Assembly (NCBI GenBank): GCA_964479005.1
Contig: CAYZJA010000001.1
Location: 80,642-144,641 of the forward strand
DNA: 64,000 nt
Direction of reading: 5' to 3'
Source of the DNA: an uncultured Candidatus Saccharibacteria bacterium
GTDB lineage: Bacteria; Patescibacteriota; Minisyncoccia; UBA6257
The position numbers and the translations under genes were made by a program. The notes under the pieces are model-generated. The model worked only from the letters and a program-made list of their open reading frames with translations, was not told the DNA's origin and made no database searches. Of this stretch, positions 46,484 through 50,359 are shown one piece after another (the first letter of the stretch is position 1; each line of letters begins with the position of its first letter).

Positions 46484-46526
46484 ACGTTGCGGGCATCGTA
46501 TAGTGGCAGTACGTAACCTTCCCAAG

Positions 46527-46546
46527 CCCCCACACCAAACGAGTAT
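46527..46546 (+). repeat. left arm of the 20-bp inverted repeat inside the split tRNA
   Basis: cccccacaccaaacgagtat. Its partner is at 46638-46658. Confidence 0.9.
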
Positions 46547-46550
46547 CATT

Positions 46551-46621
46551 GCGAGATTAGTATAGTGGTAGTACATCACCTTCCCAAGGTGAAGGTGCCG
46601 GTCCGATTCCGGTATCTCGCT
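46551..46621 (+). tRNA. tRNA-Gly(CCC), nested within the insert
   Basis: gcgagat ta gtat agtggta gtac a tcacc ttcccaa ggtga aggt gccgg tccgatt ccggt atctcgc t. Complete cloverleaf, but the T-loop has C at position 55. Confidence 0.75.
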
Positions 46622-46637
46622 CCGTTTAAAATTTAAA

Positions 46638-46658
46638 ATACTCGTTGTGGTGTGGGGG
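46638..46658 (+). repeat. right arm of the inverted repeat
   Basis: atactcgttgtggtgtggggg is the reverse complement of the left arm with one extra g. Confidence 0.9.
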
Positions 46659-46778
46659 CAAGGTTAAAGTGTGGGTTCGATTCCCATTGTCCGCTCAAAT
46701 TATTTTTTCGTTACTATCCAAAAAGATTGACGAAGTTTCAAGTGCAATATGGTTTTGTATAATCTTTTTACATTGCTC

Positions 46779-46807
46779 TTGACAAATAGTTTTACATCGC
46801 ATATACT
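46779..46807 (+). promoter_or_regulatory. promoter TTGACA-17-TATACT for the island genes
   Basis: ttgaca aatagttttacatcgca tatact. Confidence 0.55.
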
Positions 46808-46848
46808 GGAGTTAGGTCGTAATAATTAACTATTTCATCACCAAAGCT

Positions 46849-47136
46849 ATGGCTACAAAAAAATTTAGTCCAACAAGAACAATAACGCAAAAAAACCTCG
46901 AAAATGTACCTGGCGACAAGCCAGGTGTCTATCGCATCAAAAACGCGTCAAATGATATTCTTTACATAGGTAAAGCAAAAGGAGGTAGATTAGATGACAG
47001 AATCGCTGAACATAAAGGACAATTCCAAGGTGGAACGAAATTCCAGTATAGATTAACTCACAGCAAAGATGCCGCCGAGCGATTAGAGCGTAAAGAAATT
47101 CGTGAATGGAAACCGCCTAGAAATAAAGATAAATAA
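46849..47136 (+). CDS. stand-alone GIY-YIG nuclease-domain protein
   Basis: PGVYRIKN..NDILYIGKA ... RIAEH ... ERKEIREWKPPRN (GIY / YIG / R / E order). Confidence 0.6.
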   Translation: MATKKFSPTRTITQKNLENVPGDKPGVYRIKNASNDILYIGKAKGGRLDDRIAEHKGQFQGGTKFQYRLTHSKDAAERLERKEIREWKPPRNKDK

Positions 47137-47139
47137 TTT

Positions 47140-47625
47140 ATGCCCTCTTCGTTAAAAACATACGCGAGCATAGAAGACATCAATAGAATTTATATGAGGG
47201 CTAATGCGCATAGTCTTACCGAAAGAATTAATAAGGATAGTGGTCTTGAACAAGATGTTTTATACATAGAAGCCTTTTTATTGCAAGCAACGTTATTGGA
47301 AGGCGTTCTTGTTAATCTTGGTCTAAGATTATTAGAAAGCAAAAAAGAATTAACTGGGCTTAAAGGTAAAAGATACGTTAAATATGGTTATGATAATGCG
47401 ATCAATGATTTATATTTAATGAATGCGATAAAAACAAAAGAGTTTAATTTATTAGAGAAATATAAATCAAAAAGAAATAAGTATATTCATAATCTATTGT
47501 CAAAAAATACGGAGTGTATAGAAAATGAGGTTTTGGATATTCATAATCAGTATAAAGATTTTGTTTGGAAAATGATAAAAAAATTGGGGAGATTAGAGAA
47601 AAAAAGATTAAGTAAAAAAAAATAA
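47140..47625 (+). CDS. hypothetical protein with HEPN-like Rx4H motif
   Basis: Predicted all-helical. KSKRNKYIHNL (R-x4-H) in the C-terminal third. Confidence 0.4.
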   Translation: MPSSLKTYASIEDINRIYMRANAHSLTERINKDSGLEQDVLYIEAFLLQATLLEGVLVNLGLRLLESKKELTGLKGKRYVKYGYDNAINDLYLMNAIKTKEFNLLEKYKSKRNKYIHNLLSKNTECIENEVLDIHNQYKDFVWKMIKKLGRLEKKRLSKKK

Positions 47626-47629
47626 AACT

Positions 47630-48406
47630 GTGCTTACAAAATTTATTCAAAAATTGCGAAAAAAGAATAATATGACGCAGGAATTTTTGGCGTCCGAGTT
47701 GAATATCTCTCGTCCTACTTATGTTCAAATAGAACAAGGCGAACGGGATTTAACTATCACCGAAGCGGAAAAACTAGCTTCTATTTTTGGAATTTCTTTT
47801 GAAGATTTTAGACATGGAAAAGATTCTTCAATTACCGCAAAAATTGAAAAGAATAAAATCAAACCAAAAATAGGAAAACAAGAGATAAGAATTAACGTCC
47901 CGCAAAAAAATCTTAAAAAATTTAAGGAAGTTTTACTTTATGTTTTGTCAAAAGTCGGCGGTAAATCAAATGTCGGCGAAGCGGTATTATATAAACTGCT
48001 TTATTTTATTGATTTTGATTTTTACGAAAAATTTGAGGAACAATTGATTGGCGCGACATATATTAAAAATCATTATGGGCCAACTCCTGTTGAGTTTAAA
48101 GCTATTATTGGCAATATGATTCAAAACGATGAAGTCGTAAAAGTTGAGGGAAAATATTTTAATTATCCACAAAGAAAATATCTGCCAGTTAGACGGCCAG
48201 ATCTTAATGTTTTATCTGGACGAGAGATAGAACATATTGATGATGTTTTGGCGCGTCTTGCTGATAAAAATGCTAAAGAAATGGAAAATTACTCCCATGA
48301 AGATATTCCGTGGAAAACGGCGGAAAATGGCAAACCACTTTCCTACGAAAGTGTTTTTTATCGTGACGAACGTTATTCTGTAAGAAATTATGAAGACGAA
48401 CTTTAA
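47630..48406 (+). CDS. XRE-family HTH fused to Panacea (DUF4065, SocA-like) antitoxin domain
   Basis: LRKKNNMTQEFLASELNISRPTYVQIEQGERDLTITEAEKLASIFG (HTH_XRE). LLYVLSKVGG...VLYKLLYFIDFDFYEKFEEQLIGATYIKNHYGPTP (DUF4065). Confidence 0.75.
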   Translation: MLTKFIQKLRKKNNMTQEFLASELNISRPTYVQIEQGERDLTITEAEKLASIFGISFEDFRHGKDSSITAKIEKNKIKPKIGKQEIRINVPQKNLKKFKEVLLYVLSKVGGKSNVGEAVLYKLLYFIDFDFYEKFEEQLIGATYIKNHYGPTPVEFKAIIGNMIQNDEVVKVEGKYFNYPQRKYLPVRRPDLNVLSGREIEHIDDVLARLADKNAKEMENYSHEDIPWKTAENGKPLSYESVFYRDERYSVRNYEDEL

Positions 48407-48725
48407 TGAACTATCTGAATTTTCTAAGGAATTTAAGCGGTTTTCAAAAAAATATAAATCGTTATATGATGACTTAGAAGAGTTTAAGCGCATCGTTGAT
48501 GTTGTACCATTAGGAAATAGCAAGCATTTTAATATTATTACACAAAACGAGCAATGCACCGTTATTAAGGCTCGTTTCTTTTGTCGTTATTTAAAACACT
48601 CTTCTTTAAGGATTATCTACGCTTTTTACAGCCAAAATTGTAAAATTGAGTTTATTGAGATATATTTTAAAGGCGAAAAAAATAATGAGGATCGCGAGAG
48701 AATCAAAGATTACTTGAAAGATTAA
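48390..48725 (+). CDS. RelE/ParE-superfamily (HigB/Gp49-like) toxin candidate
   Basis: FSKEFKRFSKKYK ... SLRIIYAFYSQNCKIEFIEIYFKGEKNNED pattern. Overlaps the antitoxin gene by 17 nt. Confidence 0.5.
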   Translation: MKTNFNELSEFSKEFKRFSKKYKSLYDDLEEFKRIVDVVPLGNSKHFNIITQNEQCTVIKARFFCRYLKHSSLRIIYAFYSQNCKIEFIEIYFKGEKNNEDRERIKDYLKD

Positions 48726-48758
48726 AAATAGATTTTGTTATTCTCTCACAGAAAATTT

Positions 48759-49202
48759 ATGGATAAAAGAATAATCAGGGAAAAATTGGATTTAATCAGA
48801 GGAGAAGTTATCTCATCCGCCACAAGAGTTGAGTTCGTTCTCGGCTATCGCTTAAGAAGGTATTTTTTTCCTAAAAGTAATAATAAAGCAACAATTCTTT
48901 TTTGGAATGTTATGAATACTCCTTACCTTACTTTTGATAATAAAATTAGTATTTATGAATCAATACCTTATTTTAAAAAATTGAAAGGTTATCCTACTAT
49001 TAAAAAATCTTTGAGATTTGTTCAGAGGTTGAGAAATACAATGGCTCATTGGGATTTAGATGAAAAGAAAAGCGATCTTAAAAATATTTTTATGTTCACA
49101 TTAGTTGGGAAATATAGAAAAATAACAATTAACGATAACTTGATTGAAAATTATAGAAAACAGATTACTTTTCTTCTAAAAAAATTTGGTTATAGTAGAT
49201 GA
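48759..49202 (+). CDS. HEPN-domain (Abi-like) protein candidate
   Basis: FVQRLRNTMAHWD, the RNxxAH form of the HEPN Rx4-6H motif. Confidence 0.45.
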   Translation: MDKRIIREKLDLIRGEVISSATRVEFVLGYRLRRYFFPKSNNKATILFWNVMNTPYLTFDNKISIYESIPYFKKLKGYPTIKKSLRFVQRLRNTMAHWDLDEKKSDLKNIFMFTLVGKYRKITINDNLIENYRKQITFLLKKFGYSR

Positions 49203-49276
49203 AGCTTGACGAGGGATTATCTATTTAGATGAAATCTTTTTTGTTTTCTCACTCTTATCTTAAAAAGATAATATAC

Positions 49277-50359
49277 TCAAATTATTCTTCCGCCGCCTAA
49301 GCATTTATCCTTTTGATAAAATACAGCAAATTGACCTGGGCAGGGAGCAAAGACGCCTTTTTTAAAGATAATCTTTAATTTTCTTTTTTCTGGAATTAAA
49401 CAAGCTTGCGATAGTTTTTGTTGATAGCGGGTTTTAACTTGCGCATGAATAGATTTTATCATTCTTTTTCCTGAAATCAAATGATATGGAAAAACAAACA
49501 GCTCTTTTTTATAAAGAGTTTTCTTATTTTTAGTAACAAAAAGTGTGTTTTTATTCTTATCCCAGCCTGCTACAAAATATGGACCCCCAGATAATTTTAT
49601 ACCTTTTCGTTGGCCTAAAGTAAAAAAATGTAGCCCTTGATGTTTAGTCAGTATATTTCCTTTTAAATCTAAAACTGGTCCTTGTTTTTCACCAACCTTT
49701 TCTTTAAGAAAGGGACAAACTGATTGGCCAGCAACAAAGCAGAAATCTTGGCTTTGTTTTTTCTTAATAAAAAATTTGAAACCTTGCTTTTTAGCAATTT
49801 TATATATGTCTTTTTTTATATAATTTGCTAATGGAAAAATAATATGAGCAAGATATTTTTGTGGTAATAAGCATAAATTATATGATTGGTCTTTATTTTT
49901 ATCTCGCGCTTTTAAAAGCTCATATTTTTTGGTTCTATTGTTTAATCTGAGTCGCGCATAGTGGCCAGTGGCGATATATTGAATCTTGTGTTTTCTTGCC
50001 CATTGCAATAACTGTTTAAATTTAAAATTAGGGTTACAAATAACGCAGGGGTTTGGAGTTCTTAGATTTTTCCATTCGGAAATAAAATAATCAACAACTT
50101 CTTTTTGAAAATCTTTTCTGGCATCTATAATATAGTAGGGGACATCTAGTTTTTTGCAAATGTTCTTGGCGATTTTCAAAGACTCCTTAGTGCAAAAAGG
50201 GTTTTCTTTAAAAGGATTTAATTTGTTTTGCCAGATAGGTAGTTTTAAAGAAACGCCAATTGGGTTCCACCCTTGCTTTTTTAATAATATTAAAGCCATG
50301 GAAGAATCTATTCCACCTGACATTCCAACAACAATTTTTTTACCCTTACCTAATTCCAT
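49277..50359 (-). CDS. mnmA: tRNA 2-thiouridine(34) synthase
   Basis: VVGMSGGIDSS (PP-loop), NPCVICN, ATGHYAR. Confidence 0.93.
   Translation of the reverse strand: MELGKGKKIVVGMSGGIDSSMALILLKKQGWNPIGVSLKLPIWQNKLNPFKENPFCTKESLKIAKNICKKLDVPYYIIDARKDFQKEVVDYFISEWKNLRTPNPCVICNPNFKFKQLLQWARKHKIQYIATGHYARLRLNNRTKKYELLKARDKNKDQSYNLCLLPQKYLAHIIFPLANYIKKDIYKIAKKQGFKFFIKKKQSQDFCFVAGQSVCPFLKEKVGEKQGPVLDLKGNILTKHQGLHFFTLGQRKGIKLSGGPYFVAGWDKNKNTLFVTKNKKTLYKKELFVFPYHLISGKRMIKSIHAQVKTRYQQKLSQACLIPEKRKLKIIFKKGVFAPCPGQFAVFYQKDKCLGGGRII

What the first reader, a model, noticed from the sequence alone, without database searches (positions are those of the whole stretch)
47140..49202. Two different HEPN-motif proteins bracket the toxin-antitoxin pair
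ORF 47140-47625 carries KRNKYIH and ORF 48759-49202 carries LRNTMAHW. Both fit the HEPN Rx4-6H catalytic motif, and the second matches the RNxxAH form seen in Abi-type and Cas13-type HEPN RNases. Both proteins look all-helical. With the GIY-YIG DNase-like gene, the island therefore holds up to four nuclease or RNase candidates in 2.4 kb. That resembles a defence/abortive-infection cassette, but it is not an arrangement I recognise as a named system (inference).
Basis: inference. Interest (0 to 1): 0.5.

Follow-up and report, generated by a model that had tools for sequence, protein, structure and literature searches.

The report
Two unrelated HEPN genes, separate modules
Both flagged genes very probably encode HEPN-type RNases from unannotated families, but they are not one system. 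The first is an optional add-on, always paired with a tiny GIY-YIG nuclease at the head of a common toxin-antitoxin operon. The second is a free-roaming single defence-island gene that landed next door.

Summary
Observation confirmed. ORF A (47140-47625) carries R112-N-K-Y-I-H117 and ORF B (48759-49202) carries R92-N-T-M-A-H97.

The "bracketing cassette" reading fails.

- **Context of A:** in 16 of 16 A-anchored loci, A sits directly after the same 95-aa GIY-YIG gene. That pair occupies a leader slot between a conserved promoter/operator and an HTH-Panacea antitoxin plus small toxin. The slot can also hold GIY alone, a 70-aa HNH gene, or nothing. GIY-A also occurs alone.
- **Context of B:** B never accompanies this operon elsewhere. 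Its DNA homology (82-91%) stops at the ORF ends, and its G+C is 27-29% against 35-48% in host flanks. It lies in seven different defence or mobile islands with no constant partner.

Best guess (inferred): A is a HepT-like RNase toxin or effector that depends on GIY, and B is a single-gene Abi-like HEPN. No named system matches.

The parts
46756..46848 (+). Conserved promoter/operator and 5' leader of the operon. TTGACA (46779-46784) and TATACT (46802-46807) are separated by 17 nt. The -35 element is bracketed by direct repeats TTTACATTGC and TTTACATCGC. This is the left boundary of the mobile cassette.
   Evidence: It is the best sigma-70-like site in the region, matching 11 of 12 positions. 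The stretch is 70-89% identical in nucleotides across dozens of loci. It aligns across GIY-A-PanA-Tox, GIY-PanA-Tox, HNH-PanA-Tox and bare PanA-Tox operons. The operator role for the PanA HTH is inferred.
46849..47136 (+). 95-aa stand-alone GIY-YIG nuclease domain (also matches DUF7508). It is the first gene of the operon and the obligate upstream partner of ORF A.
   Evidence: Pfam GIY-YIG scores 26.8 bits, above the 22.6 cut-off. The family profile hits the UvrC N-terminal domain 1yd6 at E 9e-7 and I-TevI at 0.036. Y28, Y39, R47/R51, E54, H55, E80, E83 and N92 are conserved whether or not A is present.
47140..47625 (+). ORF A: 161-aa HepT-like minimal HEPN protein of an unannotated family. 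The RNxxxH motif lies at nt 47473-47490.
47630..48406 (+). HTH_3 + SocA_Panacea antitoxin (PanA-type), 258 aa, GTG start.
   Evidence: Pfam SocA_Panacea E 1.7e-17 and HTH_3 E 2.7e-15. The gene overlaps the downstream toxin gene by 17 nt.
48390..48725 (+). 111-aa putative PanT-type toxin of unassigned fold (RelE-like is only a lead). Its stop marks the right boundary of the cassette.
   Evidence: No Pfam or PDB sequence match. The family has at least 7,921 clusters, and one member is named RelE by JGI. It always follows PanA. Nucleotide homology among cassettes ends at about 48727.
48759..49202 (+). ORF B: 147-aa solitary HEPN-like protein (RNxMAHW at nt 49032-49049). It is a separate, horizontally acquired gene and not part of the operon family.

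Best explanation
The 2.45-kb island holds three separable modules that happen to lie in a row.

**(1) The TA backbone.** This is an autoregulated type II-like toxin-antitoxin operon: conserved promoter/operator, HTH-Panacea antitoxin, and an overlapping 111-aa toxin. It is very common in Patescibacteria. The architecture and conservation are shown. Toxicity, neutralisation and autoregulation are inferred from what is established for PanA/PanT pairs.

**(2) A variable leader slot.** Between the promoter and the antitoxin gene lies a slot that can be empty. It can also hold a 70-aa HNH gene, the 95-aa GIY-YIG gene, or, as here, GIY-YIG plus ORF A (shown). ORF A is a HepT-like minimal HEPN domain with a conserved RNxxxH (shown). 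Inferred: it dimerises into a metal-independent RNase that cuts mRNA or tRNA. A never occurs without the GIY-YIG gene directly upstream. GIY occurs without A, and A can be deleted with no other change. I therefore infer that A is a dispensable toxin or effector. I also infer that its safe carriage or activity depends on the GIY-YIG protein, which takes the place MntA holds for HepT. GIY-YIG keeps its own catalytic residues, so it is probably an active nuclease as well.

**(3) ORF B.** It is an unrelated, AT-rich, horizontally spreading single gene encoding a minimal HEPN domain plus a beta-hairpin. It inserts at the ends of other defence operons. Inferred: it acts as a single-gene abortive-infection RNase, in the manner of HepS or AbiD/F-type proteins, and is silent until triggered.
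For: **HEPN assignment**
- B's relatives hit HEPN_RiboL-PSP, Abi_2, MAE_28990, pEK499_p136, Csm6_HEPN, Cthe2314, DUF4145 and Apea in Pfam. In PADLOC they hit CARF_HEPN/Csm6/Csx1, PD-T4-2_B, Cas13b, RTasHEPN and Cas13-ApeA.

**Modularity**
- All 16 A-anchored loci have GIY directly upstream.
- GIY-anchored census of distinct loci with at least 2.3 kb downstream: 14 GIY-A-PanA-Tox, 8 GIY-PanA-Tox, 5 GIY-A only.
- Toxin-anchored loci show promoter-PanA-Tox with an empty slot (L110) and with a 70-aa HNH gene (L108).
- The promoter is conserved in all of these forms.
- A-less forms arise in at least 4 lineages of the GIY tree.
- L043 carries a fresh ~350-nt internal deletion of A, with 96-100% identical flanks.
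- GIY catalytic residues are conserved with or without A.

**Independence of B**
- B is absent from all other operon copies.
- It lies in seven different defence or mobile contexts with no shared partner, except ThsB_TIR in 2 of 7.
- Its homology is confined to the ORF. dN/dS is 0.10-0.17, and its G+C of 27-29% is foreign to the host flanks.
- A and B profiles align only over the RN..H helix, E 0.12.
Against: - No biochemical data exist; RNase activity, toxicity and every partner role are inferred.
- Neither window protein reaches any curated HEPN model.
- The co-occurrence logic for GIY and A fits the reverse model equally well (GIY as toxin, A or PanA as its antidote), because GIY was never seen without A or PanA downstream.
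- A GIY-YIG protein acting as an antitoxin has no precedent in the papers I could search.
- The GIY-anchored census is biased towards GIY-containing operons. Only two toxin-anchored contexts were sampled.
- Phylum labels of metagenome bins that carry B may be unreliable.
Confidence: 0.55

Rival explanations
1. One reading: all five genes (GIY-YIG, HEPN A, PanA, toxin, HEPN B) form one integrated multi-nuclease defence or abortive-infection cassette.
For: The five genes are co-directional and tightly spaced (gaps of 3, 4, -17 and 33 nt). There is a single strong promoter upstream and no terminator before B. All five are probably co-transcribed in this genome.
Against: B is missing from every other copy of the operon in about 70 loci. 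It occurs in seven unrelated contexts. Cassette homology ends at the toxin stop, and B homology begins about 9 nt before its ATG. A itself is optional.
Confidence: 0.06
2. Reverse polarity. The small GIY-YIG (or HNH) nuclease is the toxin, a DNase. HEPN A, or the hyperpromiscuous Panacea antitoxin where A is absent, neutralises it. The operon would then be toxin-(antidote)-antitoxin-toxin.
For: GIY was never seen without A or PanA-Tox downstream. GIY catalytic residues are strictly conserved. A different small nuclease (HNH) occupies the same slot in L108. Panacea domains are described as neutralising many unrelated toxins (PMC10440598).
Against: The invariant RNxxxH in A argues for a catalytic role, not a mere binder. 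A's closest structural matches are HepT-type toxins. A has been lost several times while GIY stayed intact, although PanA was present in those cases. No HEPN antitoxin is known to me (own knowledge).
Confidence: 0.17
3. The GIY-YIG and HNH leader genes are selfish homing-type endonucleases that invaded the leader of a common TA operon and help spread the cassette. HEPN A is cargo that travels with GIY and has no functional link to it.
For: GIY-YIG and HNH are the two classic free-standing homing-endonuclease folds, and both occupy the same slot. The cassette has sharp boundaries, sits in many genomic sites and carries no recombinase. GIY-A forms compact 0.9-kb insertions between housekeeping genes, for example after atpC in L039.
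Against: The 95-aa protein is only a catalytic domain, with no DNA-binding module. The strict GIY-A adjacency, with 3-10 nt gaps or overlap, looks like translational coupling of partners. No relatives were found in IMG/VR viral contigs. No target site or empty-site comparison could be made.
Confidence: 0.15
4. A and/or B are HEPN-fold proteins without RNase activity (ligand- or protein-binding adaptors or regulators), or B is a generic helical bundle whose RNxxAH is a structural motif.
Against: R and H are invariant across both families down to 18-25% identity, with N after R as in catalytic HEPNs. The hits of B's relatives fall almost only on catalytic HEPN families. Both genes lie in defence or TA contexts.
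Confidence: 0.07

Closest known systems
HepT-MntA (HEPN-MNT) type VII toxin-antitoxin systems (e.g. SO_3166/SO_3165; Aphanizomenon HEPN-MNT)
   Different: The partner is a GIY-YIG nuclease domain, not a MNT nucleotidyltransferase. The Tyr two residues after the His, which MntA AMPylates (RX4HXY), is absent: A has H117-N-L. The pair sits in the leader of another TA operon. No sequence-level match to Pfam HEPN families.
PanA-PanT (Panacea-domain antitoxin) TA pairs
   Same: The 258-aa protein has a bona fide SocA_Panacea domain fused to an HTH. It overlaps a small downstream gene in a bicistronic arrangement. The pair is highly abundant and mobile.
   Different: The toxin belongs to no annotated family. 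The operon has a variable leader slot holding small nuclease genes, with or without a HEPN gene. The NetFlax paper does not describe this; it states that it treats only two-gene systems (PMC10440598).
Single-gene HEPN abortive-infection proteins: HepS (Gifsy-1), AbiD/AbiF (Abi_2), DARNA/PD-T7-3, ApeA
   Different: B is much smaller: 147 aa against HepS (the PDB chain is 218 residues), the ~300-residue AbiF chain and ~456-aa DARNA. It has no extra sensor domain beyond a beta-hairpin. There is no conserved flanking DNA and no tandem-repeat RNA antitoxin of the AbiF or ToxI type. No significant sequence match to any of these families for the window protein itself.
Free-standing GIY-YIG / HNH homing endonucleases and the UvrC N-terminal domain
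   Same: The 95-aa protein matches the UvrC GIY-YIG domain (E 9e-7) and the I-TevI catalytic domain (E 0.036). It keeps the catalytic Tyr, Tyr, Arg, Glu and Asn.
   Different: It has no DNA-binding or linker domain. It is always the first gene of this operon family, or paired with A. It was not found on viral contigs.

Membership tests
HEPN superfamily (ORF A) | Four-helix up-down HEPN fold | tested here: met
HEPN superfamily (ORF A) | Conserved Rx4-6H motif with a polar residue after R | tested here: met
   R112 and N113 are invariant. H117 is present in all 28 intact members.
HEPN superfamily (ORF A) | Significant match to a curated HEPN-clan sequence model | tested here: not met
   The window protein has no Pfam, PADLOC or NCBIfam hit. 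There are only sub-threshold DUF4145 hits in 11 of 29 members, best E 0.018. The profile search against PDB sequences was negative.
HEPN superfamily (ORF B) | HEPN fold | tested here: inconclusive
HEPN superfamily (ORF B) | Conserved Rx4-6H motif | tested here: met
   RNxM[A/S]H is present in 120 of 120 close relatives. R92 and H97 are invariant, and N93 and A96 are at least 90% conserved, in 61 distant relatives.
HEPN superfamily (ORF B) | Sequence link to curated HEPN models | tested here: inconclusive
   The window protein has no hit. Its distant relatives hit about ten HEPN families in Pfam (best 1e-4) and many HEPN models in PADLOC (best 8.5e-6), and almost nothing else coherent.
HEPN RNases (A and B) | Metal-independent endoribonuclease activity at a dimeric composite active site | not testable with these tools
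HepT-MntA type VII TA (ORF A) | Adjacent MNT nucleotidyltransferase antitoxin | tested here: not met
   The upstream partner is a GIY-YIG domain: Pfam 26.8 bits, UvrC 1yd6 E 9e-7. No MNT gene lies in the island.
HepT-MntA type VII TA (ORF A) | RX4HXY motif with the AMPylatable Tyr | tested here: not met
   The motif reads R-N-x-Y-I-H-N-L-L, with Leu (not Tyr) two residues after the His, across the family. The defining feature itself is from own knowledge of Songailiene et al. 2020, cited in PMC10440598.
PanA-PanT TA (genes 47630-48725) | Panacea (SocA_Panacea/DUF4065) domain protein encoded next to a small toxin gene | tested here: met
   SocA_Panacea E 1.7e-17. The genes overlap by 17 nt. The pairing is conserved in all loci.
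PanA-PanT TA | Toxicity of the partner and its neutralisation by PanA | not testable with these tools
   The toxin fold is unassigned. Only one JGI label, 'RelE', exists on a homologue.
AbiF/Abi_2 type III TA (ORF B) | Cognate non-coding RNA antitoxin (repeats) next to the HEPN gene | tested here: not met
   The flanks of B are unrelated between loci. There are no tandem arrays near B in L008 or L014. Only 33 nt separate the toxin stop from B in the window.
Thoeris-like TIR system (ORF B as effector) | Constant linkage to a ThsB TIR gene | tested here: not met
   ThsB_TIR genes neighbour B in only 2 of 7 contexts (L005, L104), and there is none in the window.
GIY-YIG nuclease superfamily (gene 46849-47136) | GIY...YIG motifs plus catalytic Arg, Glu, Asn | tested here: met
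   The Pfam score is above the gathering cut-off. The alignment to UvrC covers residues 20-90. Y28, Y39, R47/R51, E83 and N92 are conserved in 45 or more of 47 distinct sequences.
Homing endonuclease (gene 46849-47136) | DNA-binding or target-recognition module and a defined homing site | tested here: not met
   The protein is 95 aa, catalytic domain only. A homing site could not be tested.

The most novel reading that the evidence does not exclude
The GIY-YIG/HEPN pair is a new kind of two-enzyme toxin-partner module. In it, a miniature GIY-YIG nuclease replaces the MNT nucleotidyltransferase as the controller, or co-effector, of a HepT-like RNase. It might do this by binding A or by cleaving A's mRNA.

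The leader of the Panacea TA operon would then be a swap-slot where small nucleases (GIY-YIG, HNH, with or without HEPN) sit under a TA-controlled promoter. They would be unleashed when the labile HTH-Panacea repressor/antitoxin decays during phage attack.

Separately, ORF B would be the smallest known autonomous HEPN defence gene. It would spread between phyla as a bare ORF.
Probability: 0.25. Interest if true: 0.7.

Novelty: new variant of a known kind. Interest (0 to 1): 0.55.

Why it matters
HEPN RNases are effectors of Cas13, Csm6, HepT, AbiF, HepS and others. How each one is kept silent is the central question for this fold.

This island supplies two unannotated HEPN families, invisible to Pfam and PADLOC, whose control logic would differ from known cases:
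- One is strictly coupled to a miniature GIY-YIG nuclease instead of an MNT, a protein antitoxin or an RNA.
- The other is a 147-aa stand-alone gene with no partner at all. It moves between very different genomes as a bare ORF.

The work also shows that one of the commonest Patescibacteria TA operons (HTH-Panacea plus a toxin family of at least 7,900 clusters) has a leader slot that exchanges small nuclease genes. That is a concrete, testable case of TA modules acting as platforms for additional effectors.

All components are small and easily synthesised, so toxicity and rescue tests and phage-challenge tests are straightforward.

Tried and rejected
**Direct family and sequence searches**
- Searches of the five proteins in Pfam, PADLOC, NCBIfam and PHROGs gave nothing for A, B or the toxin.
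- Profile searches of the A, B and toxin families against all PDB sequences gave no meaningful hit.
- A Pfam scan of 17 toxin homologues gave only one Gp49 hit at E 0.055, so the RelE/ParE idea stays a lead.

**Structure searches**
- Foldseek of the B model against the PDB gave no significant hit.
- The afdb50 library was unavailable.

**Are A and B paralogues?**
- Profile-profile comparison aligned only the motif helix, E 0.12. Rejected.

**Distribution outside metagenomes**
- B and GIY relatives were absent from IMG/VR viral contigs.
- tblastn of A against PLSDB plasmids, and of B against PLSDB plasmids and INPHARED phages, found nothing.

**Control elements and partners for B**
- An RNA antitoxin for B, sought as tandem repeats or conserved flanks, was not found.
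- A common protein partner of B within 2 kb on either side was not found, apart from TIR in 2 of 7 contexts.
- An Rfam scan of the island found only tRNA-Gly.

**Cassette ends**
- Flanking repeats or att-like sites at the cassette ends gave only chance-level short repeats.

**Literature**
- Searches for GIY-YIG with HEPN, Panacea or antitoxin, and for DUF7508, found no description of this arrangement.
Full report
**What is there**

The island lies on the + strand between a tRNA-Gly locus (about 46487-46700) and the convergent mnmA gene (49277-50359, - strand). The surroundings are housekeeping genes: murJ, lepA and a DivIC-like gene upstream; mnmA, nifU and iscS downstream. The window is about 32% G+C and comes from a Patescibacteria-type genome, a 552-kb JGI contig.

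The island contains five genes:
- A 95-aa GIY-YIG gene at 46849-47136.
- ORF A at 47140-47625 (161 aa).
- An HTH_3 + SocA_Panacea gene at 47630-48406.
- An overlapping 111-aa gene at 48390-48725.
- ORF B at 48759-49202 (147 aa, counted from the ATG that all homologues use).

The only strong promoter-like site is TTGACA-17-TATACT at 46779-46807. No terminator separates the genes.

**The observation**

Both motifs are present as described: KRNKYIH in A and LRNTMAHW in B.

A bare Rx4-6H is not informative. It occurs in 24-36% of shuffled versions of these proteins, and R[NDH]xxxH occurs in 1-2%. Conservation is what matters:
- In 29 A-family sequences (47-79% identical), R112 and N113 are invariant. 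H117 is missing only in one chimeric fragment.
- In B, RNxM[A/S]H is present in all 120 listed relatives.
- R92 and H97 are two of only three invariant columns in an alignment of 61 relatives at 18-46% identity. These came from an exhaustive profile search of 1.8 billion representatives.

**Are they HEPN?**

Neither protein hits any model in Pfam, PADLOC, NCBIfam or PHROGs.

- AF0298, then Csm6, sacsin HEPN and others.

Eleven of 29 family members also give sub-threshold hits to DUF4145, which I recall (own knowledge) to be a HEPN-clan family. I regard A as a HEPN domain of the HepT type.

Independent support comes from B's distant relatives. Individual members hit these models, and hardly anything else coherent:
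- In Pfam: HEPN_RiboL-PSP (7 members), Abi_2 (6), HEPN_MAE_28990 (3), pEK499_p136, Csm6_HEPN, Cthe2314, DUF4145 and Apea.
- In PADLOC: CARF_HEPN/Csm6/Csx1, PD-T4-2_B, Cas13b, RTasHEPN and Cas13-ApeA models, best E about 1e-5.

I put B as HEPN at about 0.8. A and B are not paralogues; their profiles align only over the motif helix, E 0.12.

**ORF A belongs with the GIY-YIG gene, in the leader of a Panacea TA operon**

Neighbourhoods were retrieved for three A homologues from contigs and for 13 loci from a scan of one genome per species. In all 16, the same 95-aa GIY-YIG gene (54-92% identical) lies directly upstream, with a gap of 3-30 nt or an overlap.

Anchoring instead on the GIY gene gave 57 metagenome loci. 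Among distinct loci with at least 2.3 kb of downstream sequence:
- 14 are GIY-A-PanA-Tox.
- 8 are GIY-PanA-Tox, with GIY abutting PanA by 5-9 nt.
- 5 are GIY-A alone.

The five GIY-A-only loci include three Gammaproteobacteria chromosomes, where the pair is a compact insertion, for example between atpC and a dehydrogenase gene in L039. The other two are Patescibacteria loci lying next to a GmrSD-like gene or a methyltransferase gene.

Anchoring on the toxin, whose family has at least 7,921 clusters, gave two further forms:
- The same promoter directly followed by PanA-Tox (L110).
- The same promoter followed by a 70-aa HNH gene and then PanA-Tox (L108).

The about 95 nt upstream of the first gene align across all these forms. 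This stretch holds TGTGTATAA, two TTTACATYGC repeats bracketing TTGACA, the -10 element and a shared leader.

So the backbone is a promoter/operator-PanA-Tox module, with a variable slot between the leader and the antitoxin gene. The cassette in the window runs from about 46756 to about 48727.

**Inferring roles**

*GIY-YIG.* The GIY profile matches the UvrC N-terminal domain (1yd6, E 9e-7) and I-TevI. Its catalytic residues are conserved in 45 or more of 47 distinct sequences, with no difference between operons with and without A. It is therefore probably an active nuclease in its own right.

*A is dispensable.* A-less forms appear in at least four places on a GIY tree. L043 differs from its near-twin L044 by a clean ~350-nt deletion that removes the HEPN core, while the flanks remain 96-100% identical.

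*The asymmetry.* A was never found without GIY, while GIY, PanA and Tox all occur without A. This is the pattern expected of a toxin or effector (A) that needs its partner (GIY), and it matches HepT-type precedent.

*What A lacks.* The two features that define HepT-MntA were tested and not met: there is no MNT partner, and the AMPylatable Tyr is absent.

*The caveat.* The same data also fit the reverse model. GIY was never seen without A or PanA downstream, so GIY could be a DNase toxin neutralised by either. A third reading is suggested by two classic homing-endonuclease folds sharing one slot in a recombinase-less mobile cassette: a selfish-nuclease explanation. These three readings cannot be separated computationally with what was available. 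I rank them 0.55, 0.17 and 0.15 for the overall models.

**ORF B is a separate, roaming gene**

B is absent from all other copies of the operon. Its family (at least 182 clusters) is unusually uniform at 72-100% identity. The bins carrying it are labelled Patescibacteria, Thermodesulfobacteriota, Elusimicrobiota, Bacteroidetes and Zixibacteria.

Seven distinct neighbourhoods were read:
- After a HinP1I-type R-M system and Vsr, and before a TIR gene.
- After two ThsB_TIR genes, near NYN and Gabija-like genes.
- Between AbiEii and an SMC-like ATPase with methyltransferases.
- Between a HATPase-type cluster and a methyltransferase plus helicase.
- Next to an IS element.
- In an integrase/T4SS element.
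- Here, after the PanT-like toxin.

No protein within 2 kb on either side is shared between contexts, except TIR in two of them. There are no tandem-repeat arrays and no conserved flanking DNA that could encode an AbiF- or ToxI-like RNA antitoxin.

Nucleotide identity of 82-91% starts about 9 nt before the ATG and ends within 9 nt of the stop. dN/dS is 0.10-0.17 at dS 0.27-0.55, and the gene's G+C (27-29%) is well below its flanks (35-48%).

B therefore behaves as a horizontally spreading single ORF under purifying selection. How a bare ORF relocates so precisely is unexplained.

The nearest functional analogues are single-gene HEPN abortive-infection proteins such as HepS (PMC13043305), AbiD/F, DARNA and ApeA. 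B is smaller than these and lacks a sensor domain.

Neither B nor GIY has relatives in IMG/VR. B has no tblastn match in PLSDB or INPHARED, and A has none in PLSDB.

**Comparison and novelty**

Both genes are best filed as new families within the HEPN superfamily. Fold and motif tests are met; curated-model membership is not.

The PanA-PanT assignment of the middle pair is met at the domain level. The island as a whole matches no named system.

I found no description of the following in the searchable literature:
- An obligate miniature GIY-YIG/HEPN pair.
- A nuclease-swapping leader slot in a very abundant Panacea operon.
- A 147-aa partnerless HEPN gene that moves as a bare ORF.

All three remain variants of known themes (HEPN toxins, TA modules, defence islands), and the mechanisms are inferred. 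Hence the ratings: 'new variant of a known kind', interest 0.55.

Noticed in passing
window 46487-46700: Apparent tRNA inside a tRNA. ARAGORN and Rfam call only tRNA-Gly(CCC) at 46551-46623. That gene sits in a ~135-nt insert closed by a ~21-bp helix (CCCCCACACCAAACGAGTAT / ATACTCGTTGTGGTGTGGGGG). The insert interrupts the anticodon loop/stem of a second, outer tRNA-Gly(CCC), whose halves lie at 46487-46526 and 46662-46700. CAAG is duplicated at both junctions. The whole region folds as predicted (-86 kcal/mol, z -6.9). It looks like a MITE-like insertion carrying a replacement tRNA, or a split or intron-bearing tRNA. No second copy of the arm exists in the window.
   Followed up: partly
L108:3035-3247 (and L109): In another Patescibacteria genome, the slot occupied here by GIY-YIG plus ORF A holds a 70-aa HNH-motif gene (…GYEVHHIKPLAEGGKDTPKNIRV…). 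It sits behind the same conserved promoter and ahead of PanA-Tox. In L110-L115 the slot is empty.
   Followed up: partly
L043:842-969 versus L044:880-1379: A natural knockout of ORF A. A ~350-nt in-gene deletion removes the HEPN core, while GIY, PanA and the flanks stay 96-100% identical to the intact sister locus.
   Followed up: yes
window 48750-49211; L005, L008, L014: ORF B homology (82-91% nt) ends within about 10 nt of the start and stop codons, while the flanks are unrelated. The gene stays at 27-29% G+C in hosts of 35-48% G+C. The mechanism that moves a bare ORF so precisely is unexplained.
   Followed up: partly
L104:652-2359 and L005:5001-6366: ORF B homologues lie 4 nt after two tandem ThsB_TIR genes (L104), or one gene before a ThsB_TIR gene (L005). 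This hints that B may sometimes serve a Thoeris-like TIR module, but TIR is absent in the other five contexts and in the window.
   Followed up: partly
L017:1-1074, L108:1818-2927, L033:2458-3792, L025:107-3588: Copies of the GIY/PanA operon family repeatedly sit next to GmrSD/DUF262-HNH restriction genes. In L025 the neighbours are a HEPN_RiboL-PSP gene and a ResIII restriction enzyme. The cassette therefore tends to land in defence islands elsewhere, whereas in the window it sits among housekeeping genes.
   Followed up: no
window 48613-48727: The last ~110 nt of the toxin gene (encoding FIEIYFKGEKENEDRERIKDYLK) stay 78-88% identical in nucleotides in loci where the rest of the gene no longer aligns by BLASTN. 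This could be a strongly constrained C-terminus or a recombination boundary of the cassette.
   Followed up: no
P0047 (220 aa) and P0052 (162 aa), homologues of ORF A: Two database 'homologues' are chimeras of an ORF A fragment with an ABC-ATPase or ATP-grasp segment. They are probably assembly or gene-calling artefacts. P0052 is the only sequence lacking H117.
   Followed up: no
window 49155-49249: An imperfect 31-nt inverted repeat (74% complementary) spans the end of ORF B and the B/mnmA intergenic region. It may be a bidirectional terminator for the convergent genes. The consensus terminator scan did not call it.
   Followed up: no
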